DNA of 64,000 nt from positions 1-64,000 of the IMG/VR virus record IMGVR_UViG_3300042526_000402; one strand, given 5' to 3'. The notes beneath the pieces are model-generated. The model saw only the letters and a program-made list of their open reading frames with translations, had not been told where the DNA came from and did not search any database. Origin of the DNA: a virus. Positions 28,040-58,588 of this stretch are shown here, piece by piece. The position numbers and the translations under genes were made by a program. Positions within the stretch are counted from its first letter, which is position 1. Each line of letters opens with the position of its first letter.

Positions 28040-28318
28040 TTATTTAAACGTGATTACTTTTACTACTGCCATTTGTGCACTTACTAATTCTCCTACAGCA
28101 TGATCAAATAGTAAACTTTTAATTGGGTTACCCGTACTAGATGTATAACTGTCTTTAAGAATGTTTGCAATCTCAGCATATAATTCTTTTACTTTAGCTA
28201 CACCAGCATCATTACTTGGGTTGAATTCTATTCCTACTAATTGCTCACCAAATGAAAGCAGCTTAGCTTCATTAACATTAATAATTCCTTCTGGAATACT
28301 TACTACTGTTTCACTCAT
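28040..28318 (-). CDS. Acb2/Tad1-like helical hairpin protein (candidate cyclic-nucleotide sponge)
   Basis: GE..VG..FNPS....V..VK...A...; A...L..AQM..VK..T pattern recalled from the Acb2/Tad1 hairpin superfamily. Confidence 0.5.
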   Translation of the reverse strand: MSETVVSIPEGIINVNEAKLLSFGEQLVGIEFNPSNDAGVAKVKELYAEIANILKDSYTSSTGNPIKSLLFDHAVGELVSAQMAVVKVITFK

Positions 28319-28384
28319 TACTTTTTAGATTTGATTATTACTAAATGATGAAGCCATCCCTTTAAGACTTCAATTTTTGCTTTG

Positions 28385-28639
28385 TTACTTGTTTTGCTCA
28401 TCTGCTTTACTATATGTTAATTTAAATATGTCCGGTTTACATGGATAGAATTCATCATTGATTCCTTTAATAATAAAGTCACTTATGCTTGCTCTCATGT
28501 TACCTTCAAGCGTAAATATAAATAAAAATTCATTATGTAAAAATTCACAGTGTTCTCCTACAAACTCTTGGATCTCTTCATTGTTAGAACCATTCCATTG
28601 TATAGCCTCAATAACTACAGGTTTTTTTATATACCTCAT
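28385..28639 (-). CDS. KKPV-TLEG-YPCKPDIF family phage protein (Acb4-like sponge candidate)
   Basis: RYIKKPVVIEAIQW...TLEG.M.A...D.IIKG...EFYPCKPDIF..TY. Confidence 0.55.
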   Translation of the reverse strand: MRYIKKPVVIEAIQWNGSNNEEIQEFVGEHCEFLHNEFLFIFTLEGNMRASISDFIIKGINDEFYPCKPDIFKLTYSKADEQNK

Positions 28640-28908
28640 TTCAACTCAACTCTTTTTACATTTACAAAAGACTCTTCATATTCATCTTGAGTATATACAG
28701 ATATTTCTCCAGAGCTTGATTTCAATATATAATTACCTGGCAACACTTTTTTAGGACCCTGTTTAGCAGCAACAAATAAAGTTAAAACCTTGTTGCTTAT
28801 TACAAACTCAGCACTATGTGCAAACTTAAATACTTCTTCTCTGTCACCTTCAGTATATCTTAAAGCATCATAATACTCAGGTTTCTTCATACATCTTTGA
28901 ATCATCAC
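28636..28908 (-). CDS. Diverged paralogue of the adjacent KKPV-family protein
   Basis: KKP...A..Y...G....PG.YILK...GE......EESF aligns by eye with 28385-28639. Confidence 0.5.
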   Translation of the reverse strand: MMIQRCMKKPEYYDALRYTEGDREEVFKFAHSAEFVISNKVLTLFVAAKQGPKKVLPGNYILKSSSGEISVYTQDEYEESFVNVKRVELK

Positions 28909-29919: not shown

Positions 29920-30060
29920 TTTAACCCCCCATGTTACCAAGTAGTAACTTACCCCCTGGTAACTTGATTTGGGTATTGGGAAATGTTGTATGTAGGAGAT
30001 GGTGGTGACCCCCCTATTCCAAGCCCCCCGGCCTGCGCCACTAGCCTCCCACCCCCCATG
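29920..30060. other. GC-rich C-tract island at the strand switch (candidate genome end, packaging site or origin)
   Basis: Five runs of 5-6 C in an AT-rich genome, exactly between the divergent arms. Confidence 0.4.
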
Positions 30061-30161
30061 CTTTGAGAGAGCTAACCCTTGAATCAAGAAATATAATAAA
30101 CTTTTTCTTGACAGAAAAAGAACTAACCCTTATCTAGAACTAAATATAAAATTTAGAAATC

Positions 30162-30389
30162 ATGGATAAAAAAGACAGGTTGTATACTTTCAGATGCAAA
30201 GTGTGCAAATCACAGCAAGATTGGGGATTCTTATTGATTGTTGTAGGCTTTGAAAATAAAGCCTTTACAATCAACAAGAACTATGCTACAAAGTGTGGTA
30301 TGGTTCTTAATAGAATATATGATGTTACTGCAACCTTGAAAGAGGTTGGCAAGTATACAAATATTGAGAAAATATTGAGAGTGCATTAG
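30162..30389 (+). CDS. Small early protein (possible OB-fold)
   Basis: 75 aa between a promoter box and a terminator. Confidence 0.6.
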   Translation: MDKKDRLYTFRCKVCKSQQDWGFLLIVVGFENKAFTINKNYATKCGMVLNRIYDVTATLKEVGKYTNIEKILRVH

Positions 30390-30405
30390 GCACTCTCTTT
30401 TTTTC
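30377..30405 (+). terminator. Intrinsic terminator
   Basis: GAGAGTGC-attag-GCACTCTC-T7. Confidence 0.75.
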
Positions 30406-30447
30406 TTCCCTCTCTTTTCTCTAACCCTTAACATATATAAAAATATA

Positions 30448-30649
30448 TACTCTCATCTAAGCAAGATATCATTCACTCAAGTGATATAACTAACTTACTG
30501 AACTGATACGTCATCTGTTGGAGAACAGTGCATCTATTAGACAAGAATAGCTATCATATTAGTTAGCAAAATTGTAATTCAATAGAGAAGAATTGAGTTC
30601 TATAAATCATAGGTTGAGTTACAAGGGTTGCAACCTTGTGAGAGTACTA
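30448..30649 (+). ncRNA. tRNA-shaped structured RNA, copy 1
   Basis: TACTCTCA/TGAGAGTA closing stem, TCT-AAGCA-AGA hairpin, CAAGG-GTTGCAA-CCTTG hairpin, 3' CTA; covaries with copy 2. Confidence 0.65.
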
Positions 30650-30772
30650 TACTGCTATTGAGTTAACTGAACAAATGATGTTCTCATAGCAGTATTATTA
30701 TGTAACAATCAGAGGCATTCTCCTTAAAGGCTTTGGAGATGTAAGTACCGTAAAAGGAGTTAGCCACTCAAT

Positions 30773-30805
30773 AAGAGAGAACTATAAAGGTTCTCTCTTT
30801 TTTTT
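30773..30805 (+). terminator. Intrinsic terminator
   Basis: AAGAGAGAAC-tataaag-GTTCTCTCTT-T tract. Confidence 0.75.
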
Positions 30806-30851
30806 CAACTAACCCTTAACTCAATTAAAATATTAATTAATACTAACTACC

Positions 30852-31319
30852 ATGACAAAAATTATTAAAGCTGCATTAAGCACTAAATATGCTAATGAGC
30901 AAATTGCAAATCTATTAACAATAATAGAAGCAACTCCTAATCCTGAAACTGCTGTAGAAATTGCATTAGGATTATACTCATTACCAAATCTTGCTCCAAA
31001 AGGTATCTTGGAAAAAGGAAATGAAAAGATTGAAGTGGATTTGTTACGCTATGATATATGGCAAAACACAGTATACTTTCAGCATGAAGTACCTAAAGGA
31101 AAGGCTCTCTATGTACTATTAGAAGATGTAGACTATGTGGATTATGATAATTATAGAAACTATGAAGCTGATTACACAGACCGTAGACAGAATCCTGAAA
31201 AGTATGAATATGTGACAGTGTATTCTACTAAAGAAACCACTATAGCTACTGACTATGTGTATCTTGATAAGTGGGAAACTATGGCAGCATTATGGGAATC
31301 AAAACATAGTCTTGACTAA
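30852..31319 (+). CDS. Early hypothetical protein
   Basis: 155 aa monocistronic cassette. Confidence 0.7.
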   Translation: MTKIIKAALSTKYANEQIANLLTIIEATPNPETAVEIALGLYSLPNLAPKGILEKGNEKIEVDLLRYDIWQNTVYFQHEVPKGKALYVLLEDVDYVDYDNYRNYEADYTDRRQNPEKYEYVTVYSTKETTIATDYVYLDKWETMAALWESKHSLD

Positions 31320-31326
31320 AAGGAAT

Positions 31327-31352
31327 GAGAGCTAAGGCTCTCTTCTTTTTTT
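31327..31352 (+). terminator. Intrinsic terminator
   Basis: GAGAGC-taag-GCTCTC then a T-rich tract. Confidence 0.7.
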
Positions 31353-31423
31353 CCCCTTTCCCTCTTTCTTACTAACCCTTAACTTAAATAAAAATAAATT
31401 ATTAATTATTAAATTTAATTATT

Positions 31424-31840
31424 ATGAAAGCTAAATTAATTGGCAAGAGCAAAAGTGCAAAGAGCAAAACTGGATTATCATTTAGATATGTAATCAGTGG
31501 CACTAAAGAAGAAATTGCTGAGTTGGTAAAAACTGAGAATTTCAAAGAGTATCCTCAATATGAAGAAGCTACAGGTTTACCACTTGTATTCAGAAATGAG
31601 CCATTATTGATGAATCCATGTGATGTAGGCATCAGTAAGAATAACAGGTATTATCTTGATGATACAGATGTTATGGTAGAAATGGCTATGACTGAAAAGA
31701 TGAGTAAGACATCTTCTATATTTGCTGAGAAATTTGCAGAGAAAGCAGTTAGTAAGCTCTCTGCCTTATCAGCATTTATGGATAAGGTAGAAATACCTGA
31801 AACTGAAGAATCTGAGCCTGAGACTAAAGAGAAGAAATAG
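31424..31840 (+). CDS. Early hypothetical protein
   Basis: 138 aa monocistronic cassette with acidic tail. Confidence 0.7.
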   Translation: MKAKLIGKSKSAKSKTGLSFRYVISGTKEEIAELVKTENFKEYPQYEEATGLPLVFRNEPLLMNPCDVGISKNNRYYLDDTDVMVEMAMTEKMSKTSSIFAEKFAEKAVSKLSALSAFMDKVEIPETEESEPETKEKK

Positions 31841-31847
31841 TCTGTAA

Positions 31848-31890
31848 AGAATATAGTATGTGTAATAGCATACTGTATTCTTTTTCTTTT
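31848..31890 (+). terminator. Intrinsic terminator
   Basis: AAGAATATAGTATG...CATACTGTATTCTT then a T tract. Confidence 0.65.
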
Positions 31891-31924
31891 CCCTCCTTTT
31901 TACTAACCCTTTACTAACATAAAA

Positions 31925-32370
31925 TAGGAAGAACAGATATATATACTATAATATGCTGTTTGTACAGTGCTGATTTGTTGTTCAGCATCATGCATAATGC
32001 ATATTAAGTTGTTCTGTAGGAAAGATTATTTATCTGTTCAGCATTATGCACAATGCTACTATGTTGTCTCCACCGTGTGTAGCATTGGCACTTTGCTATT
32101 GGTAATCAAGCAGTTATATTTTTATAATTCTTGTGAAAGTGTGAGTGATTGTGGTAAAAGGTGTCATACTCCTTCACTATATTAACAGTTCAGCATGCTT
32201 GCAAAATGTAGTAAATACCTGACTATTAAGAATAATATAGCTAGAACATGACTAAACAGTACCTTGTAGACAACATATTAAGAGTGTCTATACATATATT
32301 AATCAGTATTACTATTACTATTAGTGTTATCTGCTTTAAGACAGTAATTACTTCCGGAAACTCTCTAAAA
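31925..32370 (+). ncRNA. Candidate long structured leader or ncRNA
   Basis: No credible ORF; several inverted repeats and three GTTCAGCAT copies, directly downstream of promoter box 6. Confidence 0.4.
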
Positions 32371-32393
32371 TCTATAATCTAAATAATATAATC

Positions 32394-32600
32394 ATGAAAA
32401 CTTACAAAATTTATTGGTCAGTAGACCAAAGAACAGGTGATAACCTTATTAAAGCTACTTCAGAAGAATTAGCTATTGCAGAATTTAAATCTGCTTATCC
32501 TAATAAACTTGTTGAACAAATAATAAACTGTTCAACACAAGAATATCAGCTTGCTTATGATAATGAGCAATTTGATTCTAATGGTAGAAGAAAATTCTAA
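32394..32600 (+). CDS. Small hypothetical protein
   Basis: 68 aa; IKATSEELA; followed by an AAGGGGTA-gaaa-TACCCCTT terminator. Confidence 0.65.
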   Translation: MKTYKIYWSVDQRTGDNLIKATSEELAIAEFKSAYPNKLVEQIINCSTQEYQLAYDNEQFDSNGRRKF

Positions 32601-32650
32601 GGGGTAGAAATACCCCTTTTATAAAATAATAATCTCAAAAACTAAAAACC

Positions 32651-33028
32651 ATGACTAATTTATTATGGTGTTCTGCTCATACACCAACAAAAGAGCAAAT
32701 GGAATCACTGAATTCAATGGGACGTGTAATATTCTTGAAAGATATTAACACAACTATACAAGATAAAATAAATAACTGCTCTTCTGATAGAAGTGAGTTA
32801 ATGGATCTTGCCCAAGAATTAAATAAAATAAGACTTGACCTTGACTGTACAATAGTGCAATTAGGTGGCTCACCGATGTTCTTGTATATTGCTGGAGCTA
32901 GTATTAATAGCTGTTTATCAAAACAAGCATTAATATTTGCTCACTCAGAAAGAGTATCAGTAGATATACCACAAGAAGACGGAACTGTAGTGAAAACCAG
33001 TGTGTTTAAACACATTGGTTGGATCTAA
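32651..33028 (+). CDS. Csx20/Csx15-like protein (candidate cyclic oligoadenylate ring nuclease)
   Basis: SAHTPTKEQ N-terminus; VQLGG; AHSERVSVD...DGTVVKTSVFKH.GW C-terminus. Confidence 0.5.
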   Translation: MTNLLWCSAHTPTKEQMESLNSMGRVIFLKDINTTIQDKINNCSSDRSELMDLAQELNKIRLDLDCTIVQLGGSPMFLYIAGASINSCLSKQALIFAHSERVSVDIPQEDGTVVKTSVFKHIGWI

Positions 33029-33035
33029 TAAAATA

Positions 33036-33147
33036 CTCTGTAATATCAGTTGTAATACCTGAATAATGGTCACATCAAAAGCATGTAGGTATATATCAAT
33101 ATTACATTGATTGAAGTATCATGCTATTACAACTGAGTGCAGAGGGA
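33036..33147 (+). ncRNA. Structured RNA motif B, copy 1
   Basis: CAGTTGTAATA/TATTACAACTG stem followed by AGTGCAGAGGGA. Confidence 0.5.
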
Positions 33148-33277
33148 TTATTAAAAGGTTAATAGCAGTCCTTAAATGCTAGATGCAGTGGATAAGCAGT
33201 TTAAACCACTAGGGATACCGTAAATCGGTCAAGGAAAGGTAGACTCCTTATAAGCTACTTTAATAAAATGTACCATT

Positions 33278-33370
33278 CTCACTTCCCAAGGGTGAGCAGT
33301 TGTAGTGAACATTGTGCAGTGCTTTTAGTAGCTAAGCTAAATCACTTCATTACAACTGAGTGCAAGGGAA
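33278..33370 (+). ncRNA. Structured RNA motif B, copy 2 (with pseudoknot)
   Basis: CTCAC-TTCCCAAGG-GTGAG hairpin; CAGTTGTAGTGAA/TTCATTACAACTG stem; tail AGTGCAAGGGAA, whose GGGAA can pair with loop TTCCC. Confidence 0.55.
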
Positions 33371-33371
33371 T

Positions 33372-33466
33372 TACTCTTGTCCAAGCAGGATTAATATACT
33401 ACCTATCTGATCATAATATCAGACTATAGGATGTATATCAGGGATTGCAACCCTGCAAGAGTACTA
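33372..33466 (+). ncRNA. tRNA-shaped structured RNA, copy 2
   Basis: TACTCTTG/CAAGAGTA stem, TCC-AAGCA-GGA, long central hairpin, CAGGG-ATTGCAA-CCCTG, 3' CTA. Confidence 0.65.
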
Positions 33467-33504
33467 ATTAATAATCTAAATAATAATCTCAAAATTTAAA
33501 CCTT

Positions 33505-34260
33505 ATGAAAATTCATTTAAACTCTAGAAATGGTGTGTATACTGTAAAGTCTTACAATAATACATACATATATTTAGTAACTAAGCATTATGAAATGCGT
33601 GTACCATGCAGTGACTTTAAAGCATTTGCTGGTGGTAATCATAACTTTAGCATTAATACAGAAGAAACAGATAAGTTTCTTGCTACTGTTAATCCATCAA
33701 TGTTTCAGCATCAAGCAAAGATGACTGAAAATATTATAGAAGCTGTCAAAGCTTTATCTACTAAACAAATAGAGTTAGATGATAAAGAAGAAATTGATGA
33801 AGCTGATAACATACAATATGAAAATTGGTATTATCAGAAATCGGAAGAGTTAGCTAAGTATAAAGACAAGATCCGCAAGACTGCATCTGATGTGTATAAA
33901 CAAAAATTAGACTTTAGTGATCTTCAAATTCATGATGGTATCAAGTTTATCATACAAGCTAAGCATGATGAAACAGACTTTAGATTCTGTTTTGATCCAT
34001 TTGGATTTGTAGATAACTTTCATAGTTCAATCAGTAATATATACCGTGAAATTGGTTATGGTACTATTAATGGTGGTTGGATTAAAGTAATAAACAAAAA
34101 TGTTATTCTATACTACAAGTCTGGTGACTATGGTGTGTATGATGATATCATTGCTATAGAAGCAGCAAAGAAATTGTTCCCGAATCATAATATCAGCTCA
34201 TATGCTGGTAGACAGTGGGATAATGAATTGAATGTAAAATATGATGATTTACCTTTCTGA
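33505..34260 (+). CDS. Protein with C-terminal Janus/PHPT1-like domain
   Basis: FHSSI...NGGWI....KN.ILYYKSGDYG......AAKKLFP resembles the YHADI...GGGRI...I.VYGYS..YG pattern. Confidence 0.45.
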   Translation: MKIHLNSRNGVYTVKSYNNTYIYLVTKHYEMRVPCSDFKAFAGGNHNFSINTEETDKFLATVNPSMFQHQAKMTENIIEAVKALSTKQIELDDKEEIDEADNIQYENWYYQKSEELAKYKDKIRKTASDVYKQKLDFSDLQIHDGIKFIIQAKHDETDFRFCFDPFGFVDNFHSSISNIYREIGYGTINGGWIKVINKNVILYYKSGDYGVYDDIIAIEAAKKLFPNHNISSYAGRQWDNELNVKYDDLPF

Positions 34261-34316
34261 TATGAGTGAGCAATAATAAGCTCACTCATTTTATTAATCT
34301 TAAAAACCAAATCAAA

Positions 34317-34520
34317 ATGAAAACAATTAAGTATGTAATGTCTATTAGTCTAGGATTAATAGCATTAATCTTTGTAGAAGCAATATTCACATTTGGTAAT
34401 GCTTTTATAATAAGTAACTACAACCTGTTTGGTTGGGTAATTCAAGCTATAGTAATAACATTCACTGTCAGTGCTTCAGTTATTATTTGTAATAACCTGA
34501 TAAATGAAAGTGAGTTATGA
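34317..34520 (+). CDS. Small two-TM membrane protein
   Basis: Likely start MKTIK; preceded by an ATGAGTGAGC/GCTCACTCAT hairpin. Confidence 0.55.
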   Translation: MKTIKYVMSISLGLIALIFVEAIFTFGNAFIISNYNLFGWVIQAIVITFTVSASVIICNNLINESEL

Positions 34521-34792
34521 AGAATTACTACTGGACTATGAAGAATGGTCAAAAGATAAATATTGATGATATGGATATAAATCATTTGAGAAATAGTCTC
34601 AAATTGATTGTAAGATCTATGAATAATATTGAAGCTGAGTTAGCTAAAAGAAAAGCTAAAAGACAGTTCAGTGGAGGTGAACTAATGTCTGAAGATGCTG
34701 ATAAAGCTATGTTATATGGAATATCTCCTGAATTAACATGTGAGTGTGATGAAGTACACACATGTCAACAGTGTTTAATGAATGATTTTTAA
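34517..34792 (+). CDS. Hypothetical protein
   Basis: W..KNG..I.I.DM...HL.N motif and C-terminal CxC..H.CxxC. Confidence 0.65.
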   Translation: MKNYYWTMKNGQKINIDDMDINHLRNSLKLIVRSMNNIEAELAKRKAKRQFSGGELMSEDADKAMLYGISPELTCECDEVHTCQQCLMNDF

Positions 34793-35867
34793 AACAAATA
34801 GTATGAGTAAAATAATTTTTATGTGGTGGCTCCTTAATGGAACCATCACTCCTGCGGGAAAACATGAAGACCACAAGTTATATACTGTGTGGTTTTCTGA
34901 TGGCAAAGTTGCAGACTATGCCTATAAAGGAGAAGTAATGAATTATATTAAAACAGGTAAGTTTGAGTATGATGAATCTCTTGAATTAAAAGATGATGAA
35001 ATACTTGATGAAGAAGTATTTTACAGTAAAAATTAAAAACTAAAAGTTATGATTGCTAAAAGAAAAAAACAAATTGAAAAGGTAGAGGTTACAAAATTTG
35101 TAGCCTCTTTACCAGGTTATGAAGATTTTGATTATAAACCAATTATGAAAATACATAGCTGGTTTTGGAAAAGAAGTAGTACTGATTATAAAACTCATGA
35201 ACAATGGAAGAAGCAGAGATTAAGTATAGGTTAAACAGCATTGTATTGTATATGCATCATGTTGATAGAAGTGATACTCCAATTGAATTAAAAAGGGAAA
35301 AGTTAAATGAATTGGAAAGGGAGAAATTATTTCTTGAATGCATACTAGATCATAGAAAACAAAATAAGTTGATTAAAGAAATTGCAATAACATCTGTTGC
35401 AATAATGGTAGGTTTTGTATTATTTTACTTAATAATATTTTATGGGTAATGAACAAATCAGTTTTATGGTATCCTTAAATAGAGATAGCATAGCAATTCT
35501 TATGGACAATATAATCAATAGTAATAACAATTATGCTAAAAGGAAGTTAATAGATGTTTTAAAACATGTTATTATTTCAGACAGTACTTTGTGTAATACT
35601 CTTGTGGATATTGCTATAGGAAAAGAACTCCCGGTAGAAATCAAAGTGGGTACAACTGTAAAGATTGATCCAGACAATACGGGTTGGTTATCATCTGAAG
35701 ACAAAGCTATACTTCAAGATAACACAACAGAAAGTGAAATTTATGGTCTAGTAAAACAGTTTGTTGGCTACCATAGTTATTCAAACTATATAATAGCTTT
35801 TAAAGGAAATAAAGAAATATCTTTACCAAGTAAAGCTATTACATCTGTAAAAGATGTAGTGATATAA
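34782..35867 (+). CDS. Run of four small hypothetical genes (34782-35036, 35049-35234, 35204-35449, 35442-35867)
   Basis: Tightly packed, overlapping ORFs; no recognisable motifs. Confidence 0.55.
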
Positions 35868-36019
35868 TATTCTGTCCTGTGTGGACGCTTTTCCAGGTTA
35901 ATAGTATGAGAGAGTTAATAGCTCTCTCAATATTGTTAGCTATATAATGCCATATTTATTCAGCTAATTGATACCAGTTGTTTATTAATGTGATATTTTT
36001 ACTGCACATTAGAAAACAG

Positions 36020-37989: not shown

Positions 37990-38895
37990 ATGACTGAAAA
38001 AGAACAATTTAAAATAATTCAAGATAAGCTAAAGATTGCTAACAAAAGAACAGTAAAGCAAATATTAGCACATAAAGAGCTTTGCGAGGATATTATAAAA
38101 AGAGATGTGATATCTGAACATGAGCTGGTGGAGGAATATGAGATTCCTCAGAACCATTTGAAAAATTTAAAAACACAAGGTAAAATATCCTTTTTTACTT
38201 CTTCAGGTGAACTGAATAAAACTAACCGTGGAACTAAAGTATATTATTTTGTAGATGATGTGAAAGATTTGTTTGGATATAATATCCGCTACAATAAATC
38301 TTTTATGTTGAAAAATAACATATTTAGTAAACTTATTGTAGATATTTCAAGTAAACTTCTTACAGAAAAAGAAACTAAAATGTTAGATATGCTTCTTAGA
38401 AAAAACATTTCTATTGAAGAAATTGCTGAAGAATTTTCTCTTAGTAAGTTAAGAACTAATGAAATTGTTTCAAAAGCTGCTAGAAGAATGATTGGTAGAA
38501 TATATAACCTTCAATGCATGTTTGCTGATTATAATACAGCTCTTGATTATAAAACTGAAAATATATTACTTAAACAACAAAATAAAGAATTATACCGTAA
38601 GTTTTTAAGAAACCAAGAAGATCAAGCAAATAAAGATGCTGATTCTAATCCAATTGTTCAATATTTTATTAAAAATGGATATGATATTAAAGACTTAACT
38701 AAAGAGTTTTTGTTTCATGAACACTTATCTGTAAGAGCTGTTGGATGTTTAAGAGCAGCTGATATTAATAACATTGAGGAGTTACTTTCTTATCATAAGT
38801 CTGATCTTTTAAAATTTAGAAATATGGGTAAGAAAACTTTAGATGAAATTTGTTATTGGTTGGAATATAAGTATGACTTACAATTAAAAAATTAA
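37990..38895 (+). CDS. Transcription regulator: sigma region-4-like HTH fused to RNA polymerase alpha-CTD-like domain
   Basis: LTEKE..ML.......IEEIAEEF.LS..R..EI..KA.RR; LSVRA..CL..A.I....EL......DLLK.RNMGKKTLDEI. Confidence 0.75.
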   Translation: MTEKEQFKIIQDKLKIANKRTVKQILAHKELCEDIIKRDVISEHELVEEYEIPQNHLKNLKTQGKISFFTSSGELNKTNRGTKVYYFVDDVKDLFGYNIRYNKSFMLKNNIFSKLIVDISSKLLTEKETKMLDMLLRKNISIEEIAEEFSLSKLRTNEIVSKAARRMIGRIYNLQCMFADYNTALDYKTENILLKQQNKELYRKFLRNQEDQANKDADSNPIVQYFIKNGYDIKDLTKEFLFHEHLSVRAVGCLRAADINNIEELLSYHKSDLLKFRNMGKKTLDEICYWLEYKYDLQLKN

Positions 38896-58446: not shown

Positions 58447-58457
58447 TTAATTAAATT

Positions 58458-58547
58458 GCTTATTTGGTGTAAGGAGGAATGAATACTCTACATGGTTTTA
58501 ACATGCTAACTTGTTAGTGGATAAGGGTTAGAATCCCTTAATAAGCA
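58458..58547 (+). tRNA. Atypical tRNA-like gene (anticodon loop GT-TTT-AA, long variable arm)
   Basis: Acceptor GCTTATT/AATAAGC+A; D stem GTGT/ATAC; CATG/CATG anticodon stem; CTAAC/GTTAG extra arm; T arm AAGGG-TTAGAAT-CCCTT. Confidence 0.6.
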
Positions 58548-58588
58548 ATTTTAACTTAACGGGGAGACAGCTTAACTGAATAAATCCT

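What the first reader, a model, noticed from the sequence alone, without database searches (positions are those of the whole stretch)
32651..33028. Early-region Csx20-like protein: candidate viral ring nuclease against type III CRISPR
Seen: 125 aa with N-terminal SAHTPTKEQ and C-terminal AHSERVSVDIPQEDGTVVKTSVFKHIGW. Known, from recall: CRISPR-associated Csx20 has F(S/N)HxLTxxQ and (S/T)xR...DG...KxSxFxH, and Csx15/16/20 proteins have been reported as cyclic oligoadenylate ring nucleases. No cas genes or array occur in the window. Inference: a phage-borne cOA-degrading anti-CRISPR distinct from AcrIII-1 (DUF1874), located directly upstream of the ncRNA cluster.
Basis: partly seen in the sequence, partly recalled or inferred. 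Interest (0 to 1): 0.7.

Follow-up and report, generated by a model that had tools for sequence, protein, structure and literature searches.

The report
Phage Csx20-like candidate ring nuclease
An uncultured 136-kb phage carries a small gene clearly related to the bacterial Csx20 enzymes that destroy the alarm molecule of type III CRISPR immunity, so it probably helps the phage switch that defence off; others have already proposed this for phage Csx20 genes, and it is still untested.

Summary
The ORF at 32651-33028 (+, 125 aa) is real and reads as described. It is a true homologue of CRISPR-associated Csx20. NCBIfam NF040559 matches it end to end, but at 24.7 bits against a cut-off of 70. A profile of 116 relatives aligns with 10 canonical Csx20 proteins at hhalign probability 99.0%, E 6e-18, over 125 columns. 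All residues conserved family-wide are kept: H10, Q16, S99, R101, G111, H121.

The record is a 135,860-bp virus. I found no CRISPR-like array, no Csm1-type Cas10 and no DUF1874 (AcrIII-1 family) in it.

In a 28-sequence tree the protein falls in a mostly viral sister clade with a GGSP motif where canonical Csx20 has GDFG. That clade also holds Spirochaetota members encoded inside type III-B cmr operons.

Best reading (about 0.62): a viral cA4 ring nuclease acting as an anti-type III CRISPR. No activity has been tested.

The idea is already in print. Csx20 was reported in 4 of 28,114 phage genomes (PMC12409355), and csx20 homologues were found in acr-type operons (PMC13551039). It is therefore a new member of a known kind. 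This scan had already noted the same stretch (e1-6170014).

The parts
32651..33028 (+). 125-aa Csx20-like protein (P0001), a candidate viral cOA ring nuclease. Family-wide conserved residues are H10, Q16, S99, R101, G111 and H121. The clade-specific G72-G73-S74-P75-x-F77 motif sits at the predicted dimer interface.
   Evidence: ORF and translation. NF040559 E 2.4e-5, full length. hhalign against canonical Csx20: probability 99.0%, E 6e-18. Conservation table over 28 sequences. AF2 pLDDT 95.9. Dimer ipSAE 0.72 against best control 0.00, interface residues 45-47, 51, 71-98, 122, 125.
32599..32618 (.). G+C-rich 8-bp hairpin between the upstream 68-aa ORF (32394-32600) and the gene. It is terminator-like and may separate the gene into its own cassette.
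   Evidence: The consensus scan lists it on the - strand. The sequence was read. This is a consensus match only; function is not shown.
32605..32633 (+). Weak sigma-70-like promoter match (9 of 12) 18 nt upstream of the start codon. No Shine-Dalgarno motif precedes the ATG.
   Evidence: Promoter-like sites are barely above shuffles in this region (53 found against a mean of 41.8), so this is weak. Lack of SD is genome-wide: 2 of 90 ORFs carry an SD core.

Best explanation
The gene encodes a small homodimeric, CARF-like protein of the Csx20/MJ1673 family. [quoted passage not shown] The phage copy keeps every residue that is conserved across the whole family, so it most likely binds cA4 at the two-fold axis of its dimer and cleaves it. 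Made from the replication-side (+ strand) gene block soon after infection, it would remove cA4 before CARF effectors such as Csx1 or Can2 are activated. That is an anti-type III CRISPR role, analogous to AcrIII-1 but built on a different fold family. Shown here: homology, conserved residues, a confident fold, a predicted dimer, the viral setting, and the CRISPR setting of its cellular clade-mates. Inferred: cA4 binding, cleavage, timing of expression and the anti-CRISPR effect.
For: (1) NF040559 CAS_Csx20 is the only significant NCBIfam hit (E 2.4e-5, residues 9-123 against 6-120 of 124). 105 of 116 relatives match it and no other family.
(2) An HMM of the 116 relatives hits 12 of 12 canonical Csx20 ORFs from Spirochaetota genomes, E 3.7e-19 to 2.3e-6. 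hhalign of A2 against A3 gives probability 99.0%, E 6e-18, 125 columns.
(3) In a 28-sequence alignment H10, Q16, S/T99 and R101 are kept in 28 of 28, G111 in 27 of 28 and H121 in 25 of 28. P0001 has all of them.
(5) Homodimer: ipSAE 0.72, best of 3 controls 0.00. That mark was reached by 20 of 30 proteins solved as pairs and 1 of 23 solved as single chains. Runs agree in at least 87% of contacts and partner pLDDT is at least 86. My own alignment and two AMP ligands rode along, so the calibration holds only roughly.
(6) The record is a virus of 135,860 bp, CheckV 100%, with portal, major head and DNA polymerase genes. I found no CRISPR-like array, no Csm1 and no DUF1874.
(7) Clade-mates in cellular genomes lie in type III-B operons. 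L015 reads Cas6-like, Cmr1, Cas10/Cmr2 (164 bits), Cmr3, a CARF protein, Cmr4, Cmr5, Cmr6, one unknown ORF, then the homologue. L013 has the same order by tblastn.
(8) Canonical Csx20 lies 3.3-5.9 kb from Cas10 in 4 of 5 genomes checked.
(9) Csx20 degrades cA4 in vitro (PMC12409355, passages).
(10) Related phage contigs L002, L003 and L005 share other genes with this phage. In L005 the homologue sits in the same divergent region.
Against: The protein scores far below the curated Csx20 cut-off (24.7 against 70 bits). It belongs to a sister clade that replaces the canonical G(D/E)FG motif by GGSP and lacks the canonical C-terminal R-x-Y. No member of this clade is known to me to have been assayed.

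The three cmr-associated clade-mates carry F instead of H121, so that histidine may not be catalytic, or those copies may not be enzymes.

The syntenic phage contig L005 carries a copy with the DG...K hairpin deleted.

The host is unknown, so it is not shown that this phage ever meets a type III system. No aca-type regulator was found next to the gene; Pfam gave nothing for 9 of 10 neighbours. Expression timing was not measured.
Confidence: 0.62

Rival explanations
1. It binds cOA but does not cleave it, or cleaves very slowly. It would then act as a sponge that sequesters the signal, as described for Csx15.
For: [quoted passage not shown] Clade B differs from the assayed canonical clade in the loop at the dimer axis, GGSP against GDFG. 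The three cmr-associated clade-mates lack H121.
Against: All residues shared with the enzymatically active canonical clade are kept in P0001. The same paper argues that type III systems make so much cOA that sponging is a poor viral strategy, and notes that Csx15 was not seen in phage genomes.
Confidence: 0.13
2. It is a ring nuclease aimed at a different signal or system, for example cA3 from CBASS or from NucC-type type III systems, or cA6, rather than cA4 of type III CRISPR.
Confidence: 0.12
3. It has no counter-defence role. It would be a passenger gene picked up from a host CRISPR locus, or a nucleotide-binding protein used in phage metabolism.
For: No neighbouring gene has a recognised anti-defence or aca annotation. 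L005, a related phage contig, has a copy with an internal deletion, which fits a dispensable gene.
Against: The clade is large and mostly viral where the origin is known. There are 346 representatives at E <= 0.001, and 12 of the 15 clade-B sequences in the tree are viral. The nearest Atlas cluster is labelled 89% viruses, but on few members with a record. Key residues are strongly conserved. This argues for selection in phages, not a one-off capture. Dispensability is also typical of anti-defence genes.
Confidence: 0.1

Closest known systems
CRISPR-associated Csx20 (NCBIfam NF040559; Pfam 38.1 PF27247 'MJ1673' family), a cA4-specific ring nuclease of type III CRISPR loci
   Same: Full-length homology (hhalign probability 99.0%). 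Same length class of about 125-140 aa. Shared H...Q, (S/T)xR, (D/N)G and F-K-H motifs. Predicted dimer, as modelled for Csx20 in PMC12409355.
   Different: Scores 24.7 bits against a cut-off of 70. Has GGSP instead of G(D/E)FG after the third strand. Lacks the canonical C-terminal R-x-Y. Has F96 where canonical proteins have an invariant Y. Encoded in a phage with no cas genes found. It sits in the sister half of the tree (support 95/86).
Phage and prophage csx20 homologues already in print
   Same: Csx20 was reported in 4 of 28,114 phage genomes (PMC12409355). csx20 homologues were reported in Aca14 (RHH)-regulated operons, for example in Pasteurella multocida, and proposed to be co-opted for counter-defence (PMC13551039). 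The partial copy in Pasteurella phage Pm86 carries the same clade-B motifs (GGAP-F-F...FKHAGWI) and is followed by a 71-aa ORF that looks RHH-like by eye.
   Different: No RHH or HTH aca-like neighbour was seen here. This phage has no close cultured relative; its DNA polymerase is at most about 35% identical to any phage record. The lists of phage hits in those papers are in supplements that I could not open, so I cannot say whether clade-B proteins were among them.
AcrIII-1 / Crn2 (DUF1874, PF08960), the viral cA4 ring nuclease
   Same: Proposed role: a small dimeric viral enzyme that destroys cA4 to defeat type III CRISPR (role of AcrIII-1 as described in PMC12409355).
   Different: Unrelated family. 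P0001 gave no PF08960 match even at E up to 10, and there is none in the genome.
Crn1 (Sso2081) and other CARF/SAVED cyclic-oligonucleotide binding domains

Membership tests
Csx20 (NCBIfam NF040559 equivalog) | Score at or above the curated cut-off (70 bits) | tested here: not met
   24.7 bits, E 2.4e-5. 0 of 10 other phage homologues pass either: 9 score 22-60 bits and one does not match.
Csx20 / MJ1673 superfamily (homology) | Significant full-length sequence-profile similarity to canonical, CRISPR-linked Csx20 | tested here: met
   hhalign of A2 against A3: probability 99.0%, E 6e-18, 125 columns. The A2 HMM hits 12 of 12 canonical ORFs. 105 of 116 relatives hit NF040559.
Csx20 / MJ1673 superfamily (homology) | Family-wide conserved residues: H after strand 1, Q six residues on, (S/T)xR, G of the hairpin, H of F-K-H | tested here: met
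   H10, Q16, S99, R101, G111 and H121 are all present. Across the 28 sequences they are kept in 28, 28, 28, 28, 27 and 25 respectively.
Csx20 canonical clade | Canonical-only invariant features: G(D/E)FG loop, invariant Y before the (S/T)xR motif, C-terminal R-x-Y | tested here: not met
   P0001 has GGSP at residues 72-75 and F96, and it ends at W124-I125 without R-x-Y.
Pfam PF27247 (MJ1673) | Match to the Pfam model | not testable with these tools
   The model is absent from the local Pfam copy. Only precomputed labels are available: PF27247.1 on P0001 and most relatives, and the Atlas name 'MJ1673'. [quoted passage not shown]
Csx20 (CRISPR-associated) | Encoded in or next to a type III CRISPR-Cas locus | tested here: not met
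   The record is a phage with no array-like repeats and no Csm1. Cellular clade-mates do meet this feature (L015 and L013).
Ring nuclease (functional class) | Binds and cleaves cyclic oligoadenylate | not testable with these tools
   This needs biochemistry. Only the canonical clade has been assayed (PMC12409355).
Ring nuclease / CARF-like | Two-fold symmetric homodimer | tested here: met
   Prediction only: ipSAE 0.72 against best control 0.00. 20 of 30 solved pairs and 1 of 23 single chains reach that mark. At least 87% contact agreement and pLDDT at least 86. My own alignment and AMP ligands were used, so the calibration is rough.
CARF/SAVED fold superfamily | Structural match clearly above background | tested here: inconclusive
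AcrIII-1 / Crn2 (DUF1874) | Match to PF08960 | tested here: not met
   No match in P0001 at E up to 10. None in the 135,860-bp record.
Anti-CRISPR (functional class) | Protects a target from a type III system; often linked to an aca regulator | not tested
No HTH or RHH neighbour was found by Pfam.

The most novel reading that the evidence does not exclude
The GGSP-type clade is a large, mainly virus-borne lineage of ring nucleases that current annotation misses, because every phage copy tested here falls under the NCBIfam cut-off. It may be as widespread in uncultured phages as AcrIII-1 is in cultured ones. The few cellular copies inside Spirochaetota cmr operons would then be captures from phages, as has been argued for Crn2. 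The altered loop at the dimer axis could give it different kinetics or a different cOA range from canonical Csx20.
Probability: 0.3. Interest if true: 0.6.

Novelty: new member of a known kind. Interest (0 to 1): 0.4.

Why it matters
Viral ring nucleases decide whether type III CRISPR signalling can stop an infection. Only AcrIII-1, a viral SAVED protein and a few phosphodiesterases are described as viral enzymes against cOA in the papers I read.

A second small viral ring nuclease family would widen the known anti-type III toolkit. It would also explain why many phage 'hypothetical proteins' go unnamed. All four cultured-phage homologues found here are either annotated as hypothetical or not annotated at all.

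This family has hundreds of sequence clusters: 346 representatives at E <= 0.001. The point is incremental, because two papers have already noted phage csx20 genes.

Tried and rejected
Searches on P0001 that found nothing:
- Local Pfam gave only a chance-level TFIID hit (E 0.19).
- PHROGs gave no family.
- PDB by sequence gave nothing, either with the single protein or with the 116-sequence profile (best E 0.015, a TAL-effector repeat artefact).
- Foldseek against the PDB gave nothing at E <= 0.001.

Searches on the window and its surroundings:
- Megablast of 30000-36000 against phages found no match.
- tblastn against plasmids gave only chance-level hits (E 0.2-0.7).
- Rfam at gathering thresholds found no family in the window.
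- Neighbours gave nothing useful. Pfam and PHROGs found no anti-defence or regulator family beside the gene. The earlier scan note of candidate sponge genes at 28040-28908 found no support in those two libraries, which does not exclude it.
- The Cmr proteins of L015 hit none of the viral loci L002-L012 by tblastn. This is a weak test.

Things I could not do:
- Host identification was not achieved. The only hint is the near-absence of Shine-Dalgarno motifs.
- The supplements of PMC12409355 and PMC13551039 are closed. They hold the lists of phage-encoded ring nucleases and the conserved-residue figures. I therefore cannot say whether clade-B proteins were already counted there, or which residues those authors regard as catalytic.
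- That no viral Csx20 has been assayed as an anti-CRISPR rests only on searches (terms 'Csx20' and 'ring nuclease') of the held library and the passages read.

Full report
**The observation.** The window holds an ATG-started ORF at 32651..33028 on the + strand. The window is bases 1-64000 of a 135,860-bp IMG/VR virus record, classed linear and estimated complete by CheckV. The record has 31% G+C. It carries a portal, a major head protein and a family-A-type DNA polymerase by PHROGs. The polymerase is at most about 35% identical to any of 50,697 phage records, and a 6-kb stretch around the gene has no megablast match. So this is a phage with no close cultured relative. Genes run on the - strand up to about 29.6 kb and on the + strand from about 30.2 to 64 kb. 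The gene lies about 2.5 kb into the + strand block among many small ORFs. Calling this an 'early region' is an inference from layout.

**Is it Csx20-like?** The local Pfam, PHROGs and PDB sequence searches find nothing. NCBIfam gives one significant family, NF040559 CAS_Csx20. The E-value is 2.4e-5 and the score 24.7 bits against a curated cut-off of 70. The alignment runs over residues 9-123 against model positions 6-120 of 124.

The protein has many relatives:
- 48 in the 90%-clustered collection.
- 346 cluster representatives at E <= 0.001 in the exhaustive search, of which 110 are at E <= 1e-10 and 150 are listed.
- Of 116 relatives that I aligned (A2), 105 match NF040559 at E <= 0.001 and none matches any other family.

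To compare directly with true Csx20, I searched 401 Spirochaetota genomes with NF040559. 24 have a match above the cut-off. An HMM built from A2 hits all 12 canonical ORFs taken from the returned loci, at E 3.7e-19 to 2.3e-6. A profile-profile comparison of A2 with an alignment of 10 of those canonical proteins (A3) gives probability 99.0%, E 6e-18, over 125 aligned columns. I left two of the twelve out of A3: the 324-aa fusion in L026 and the over-long ORF in L029. Homology is therefore established. Membership of the curated equivalog is not.

**What Csx20 is.**
- In PMC12409355 (passages read), Csx20 and Csx16 were purified and shown to degrade cA4 to linear products. Csx20 also cleaved cA3 at ten-fold higher enzyme concentration.
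- In the same paper Csx20 was the most frequent stand-alone ring nuclease (78 loci), with a strong link to Csx1.
- Among 28,114 phage genomes, AcrIII-1 was found in 36, Csx20 in four and Csx16 in two.
- PMC13551039 (passages) reports csx20 homologues in operons controlled by an RHH regulator, Aca14, in Pasteurella multocida. [quoted passage not shown] It tested the regulator, not the Csx20.
- The precomputed Pfam label on P0001 and most relatives is PF27247.1. The Atlas names this family 'MJ1673'.
- MJ_1673 is listed as a small protein associated with type III-A systems of Methanococcales (PMC3973734). NF040559 passes its cut-off in the M. jannaschii control genome. That the two are the same gene is my inference.

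**Conserved residues.** I aligned 28 sequences in four groups: 12 viral of the P0001 type, 3 cellular sub-cut-off, 3 viral near the canonical clade, and 10 canonical.

| Residue in P0001 | Kept in |
|---|---|
| H10 | 28 of 28 |
| Q16 | 28 of 28 |
| S/T99 | 28 of 28 |
| R101 | 28 of 28 |
| G111 | 27 of 28 |
| H121 | 25 of 28 |

P0001 keeps all of them. The three exceptions at H121 are the Spirochaetota cmr-linked copies, which have F. The exception at G111 is L005.

P0001 and its clade differ from canonical Csx20 in three ways. They have G-G-(S/A)-P-x-F after the third strand where canonical proteins have G-(D/E)-F-G. They have F96 where canonical proteins have an invariant Y. They end at W/F-I without the canonical R-x-Y tail. 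Of the 150 listed representatives, 120 carry the GGSP-type pattern and none carries the canonical one (by regular expression).

A homodimer is supported. ipSAE is 0.72 in the median of three runs, and the best of three controls is 0.00. The tool's calibration gives 20 of 30 solved pairs and 1 of 23 single chains reaching that mark. Contact agreement is at least 87% and pLDDT at least 86. My own alignment and two AMP ligands were used, so the calibration is rough. The interface is symmetric and centred on residues 71-83, that is, on the GGSP loop and the helix after it.

**Context of relatives.**
- *Canonical Csx20.* It lies 3.3-5.9 kb from a Cas10 gene (Csm1 or Cmr2) in 4 of 5 Spirochaetota genomes checked. 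In the fifth, the only Cas10 found is on another contig.
- *Cellular P0001-type homologues.* The pattern search of one genome per species found three, all in Spirochaetota/Leptospiraceae MAGs, at 31-35% identity. They score 25-40 bits on NF040559. In L015 the homologue closes a complete type III-B operon: Cas6-like, Cmr1, Cas10/Cmr2 (164 bits), Cmr3, a 416-aa CARF protein, Cmr4, Cmr5, Cmr6, an unknown 250-aa ORF, then the homologue. L013 has the same order by tblastn. L014 is a 4.8-kb contig that shares only the downstream genes.
- *Viral homologues.* In IMG/VR, 11 loci encode relatives. L002, L003 and L005 share other genes with this phage. L005 has the same divergent region, with local rearrangement.
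- *Cultured phages.* tblastn finds four records: a Caudoviricetes sp., Rhodothermus phage RM378, Fusobacterium phage JD-Fnp4 and Pasteurella phage Pm86. The genes are annotated 'hypothetical protein' or not annotated at all.
- *Cut-off.* Of ten phage homologues scanned, nine hit NF040559 at 22-60 bits and none passes the cut-off.

**Tree.** A maximum-likelihood tree of the 28 sequences splits into two halves, with support 95/86. One half holds the 10 canonical proteins plus three viral ones (L008, JD-Fnp4, L011). The other holds P0001, 11 further viral sequences and the three cmr-linked Spirochaetota proteins. The tree is midpoint-rooted for drawing only, so no direction of transfer can be read from it. 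L011 and L005 sit on long branches.

**The phage itself.** I found no CRISPR-like repeat array, no Csm1-type Cas10 and no DUF1874. I did not run the Cmr2 model on the phage record. Neighbouring ORFs have no Pfam family in 9 of 10 cases. Further small neighbours give only DUF3310 and PHROGs of unknown function. A G+C-rich hairpin (32599-32618) and a weak promoter-like match (32605-32633) precede the gene. No Shine-Dalgarno motif does. Only 2 of 90 long ORFs in the genome have an SD core, against 6.4% of random 17-mers. From general knowledge, that pattern is typical of Bacteroidota and their phages. This is a hint about the host and no more.

**Reading.** The protein is a Csx20-family member of a mainly viral sister clade. 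The most likely mechanism is a homodimer that binds cA4 over its two-fold axis and cleaves it without metal. That would abolish activation of CARF effectors of a host type III system. The homology, the conserved residues, the predicted dimer, the viral setting and the CRISPR setting of cellular clade-mates are shown. Binding, cleavage, specificity, timing and the protective effect are inferred. I put this at about 0.62. The rivals are a non-cleaving sponge (0.13), a different cyclic-nucleotide target (0.12) and no defence role (0.10).

**Novelty.** The kind is known and the specific idea has been voiced in print. In the held library, searches for 'Csx20' returned no paper that assays a viral Csx20, as far as the listings and the passages I read show. 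This analysis adds three points. The phage copies form a distinct clade that curated models miss. The clade is large. It also contains cmr-embedded cellular members. That is a modest advance, hence 'new member of a known kind' and interest 0.4. The same stretch was already noted elsewhere in this scan (e1-6170014).

Noticed in passing
window 58457-58548 (+): ARAGORN calls a 92-nt tRNA with anticodon CTA (labelled tRNA-Pyl), i.e. an amber-suppressor-type tRNA, just upstream of the DNA polymerase gene. Among 90 long ORFs, 10 end in TAG. I did not examine whether TAG is recoded anywhere.
   Followed up: no
window 33029-33504: A 476-bp gene-free gap directly downstream of the gene. It holds two copies of a motif of about 21 nt (ATTACAACTGAGTGCA..GGGA) near 33118 and 33349. 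Rfam at gathering thresholds finds nothing in the window. An earlier follow-up in this scan (e1-6170015) reads a twister-type ribozyme and a tRNA-shaped RNA here. I did not test that.
   Followed up: no
whole record G000: Shine-Dalgarno cores precede only 2 of 90 long ORFs, fewer than in random 17-mers at 6.4%. From general knowledge this suggests a host that does not use SD-led initiation, such as Bacteroidota.
   Followed up: partly
window 37990-38895 (+): A 301-aa phage protein with a clear RNA polymerase alpha-subunit C-terminal domain (PF03118, E 2.7e-15) and a weak YlxM-type HTH hit. It may be a transcription take-over factor.
   Followed up: no
L026 (G171:C124), 324-aa ORF: A canonical Csx20 domain (150 bits on NF040559) fused to an N-terminal domain of about 200 aa of unknown identity in a Spirochaetota genome.
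   Followed up: no
L005:6001-6354: The homologue in a syntenic related phage contig is 117 aa. It lacks the segment with the conserved D-G...K hairpin but keeps the H, Q, S-x-R and K-H motifs. It has no NF040559 hit.
   Followed up: partly
L013, L014, L015 (Spirochaetota MAGs): The P0001-type copies in Spirochaetota MAGs, cmr-linked in L013 and L015 (L014 is a short contig), all carry F at the position of the otherwise conserved H121. They follow a conserved unknown ORF of about 250 aa.
   Followed up: partly
L032 (Pasteurella phage Pm86, record end): Only a 66-aa C-terminal piece of a P0001-type Csx20-like ORF is present at the end of the linear record. It is unannotated and is followed by a 71-aa ORF that looks RHH-like by eye. 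This fits the csx20-aca14 operon described in PMC13551039.
   Followed up: partly
window 28040-28908 (-): An earlier scan note (e1-6170006) proposes sponge-like genes here. The 84-aa and 90-aa ORFs are paralogues of PHROG 419 and PHROG 1810 (unknown function). The 92-aa ORF has no Pfam or PHROG hit. Homologues of two of them lie near the Csx20-like gene in L003 and L005.
   Followed up: partly
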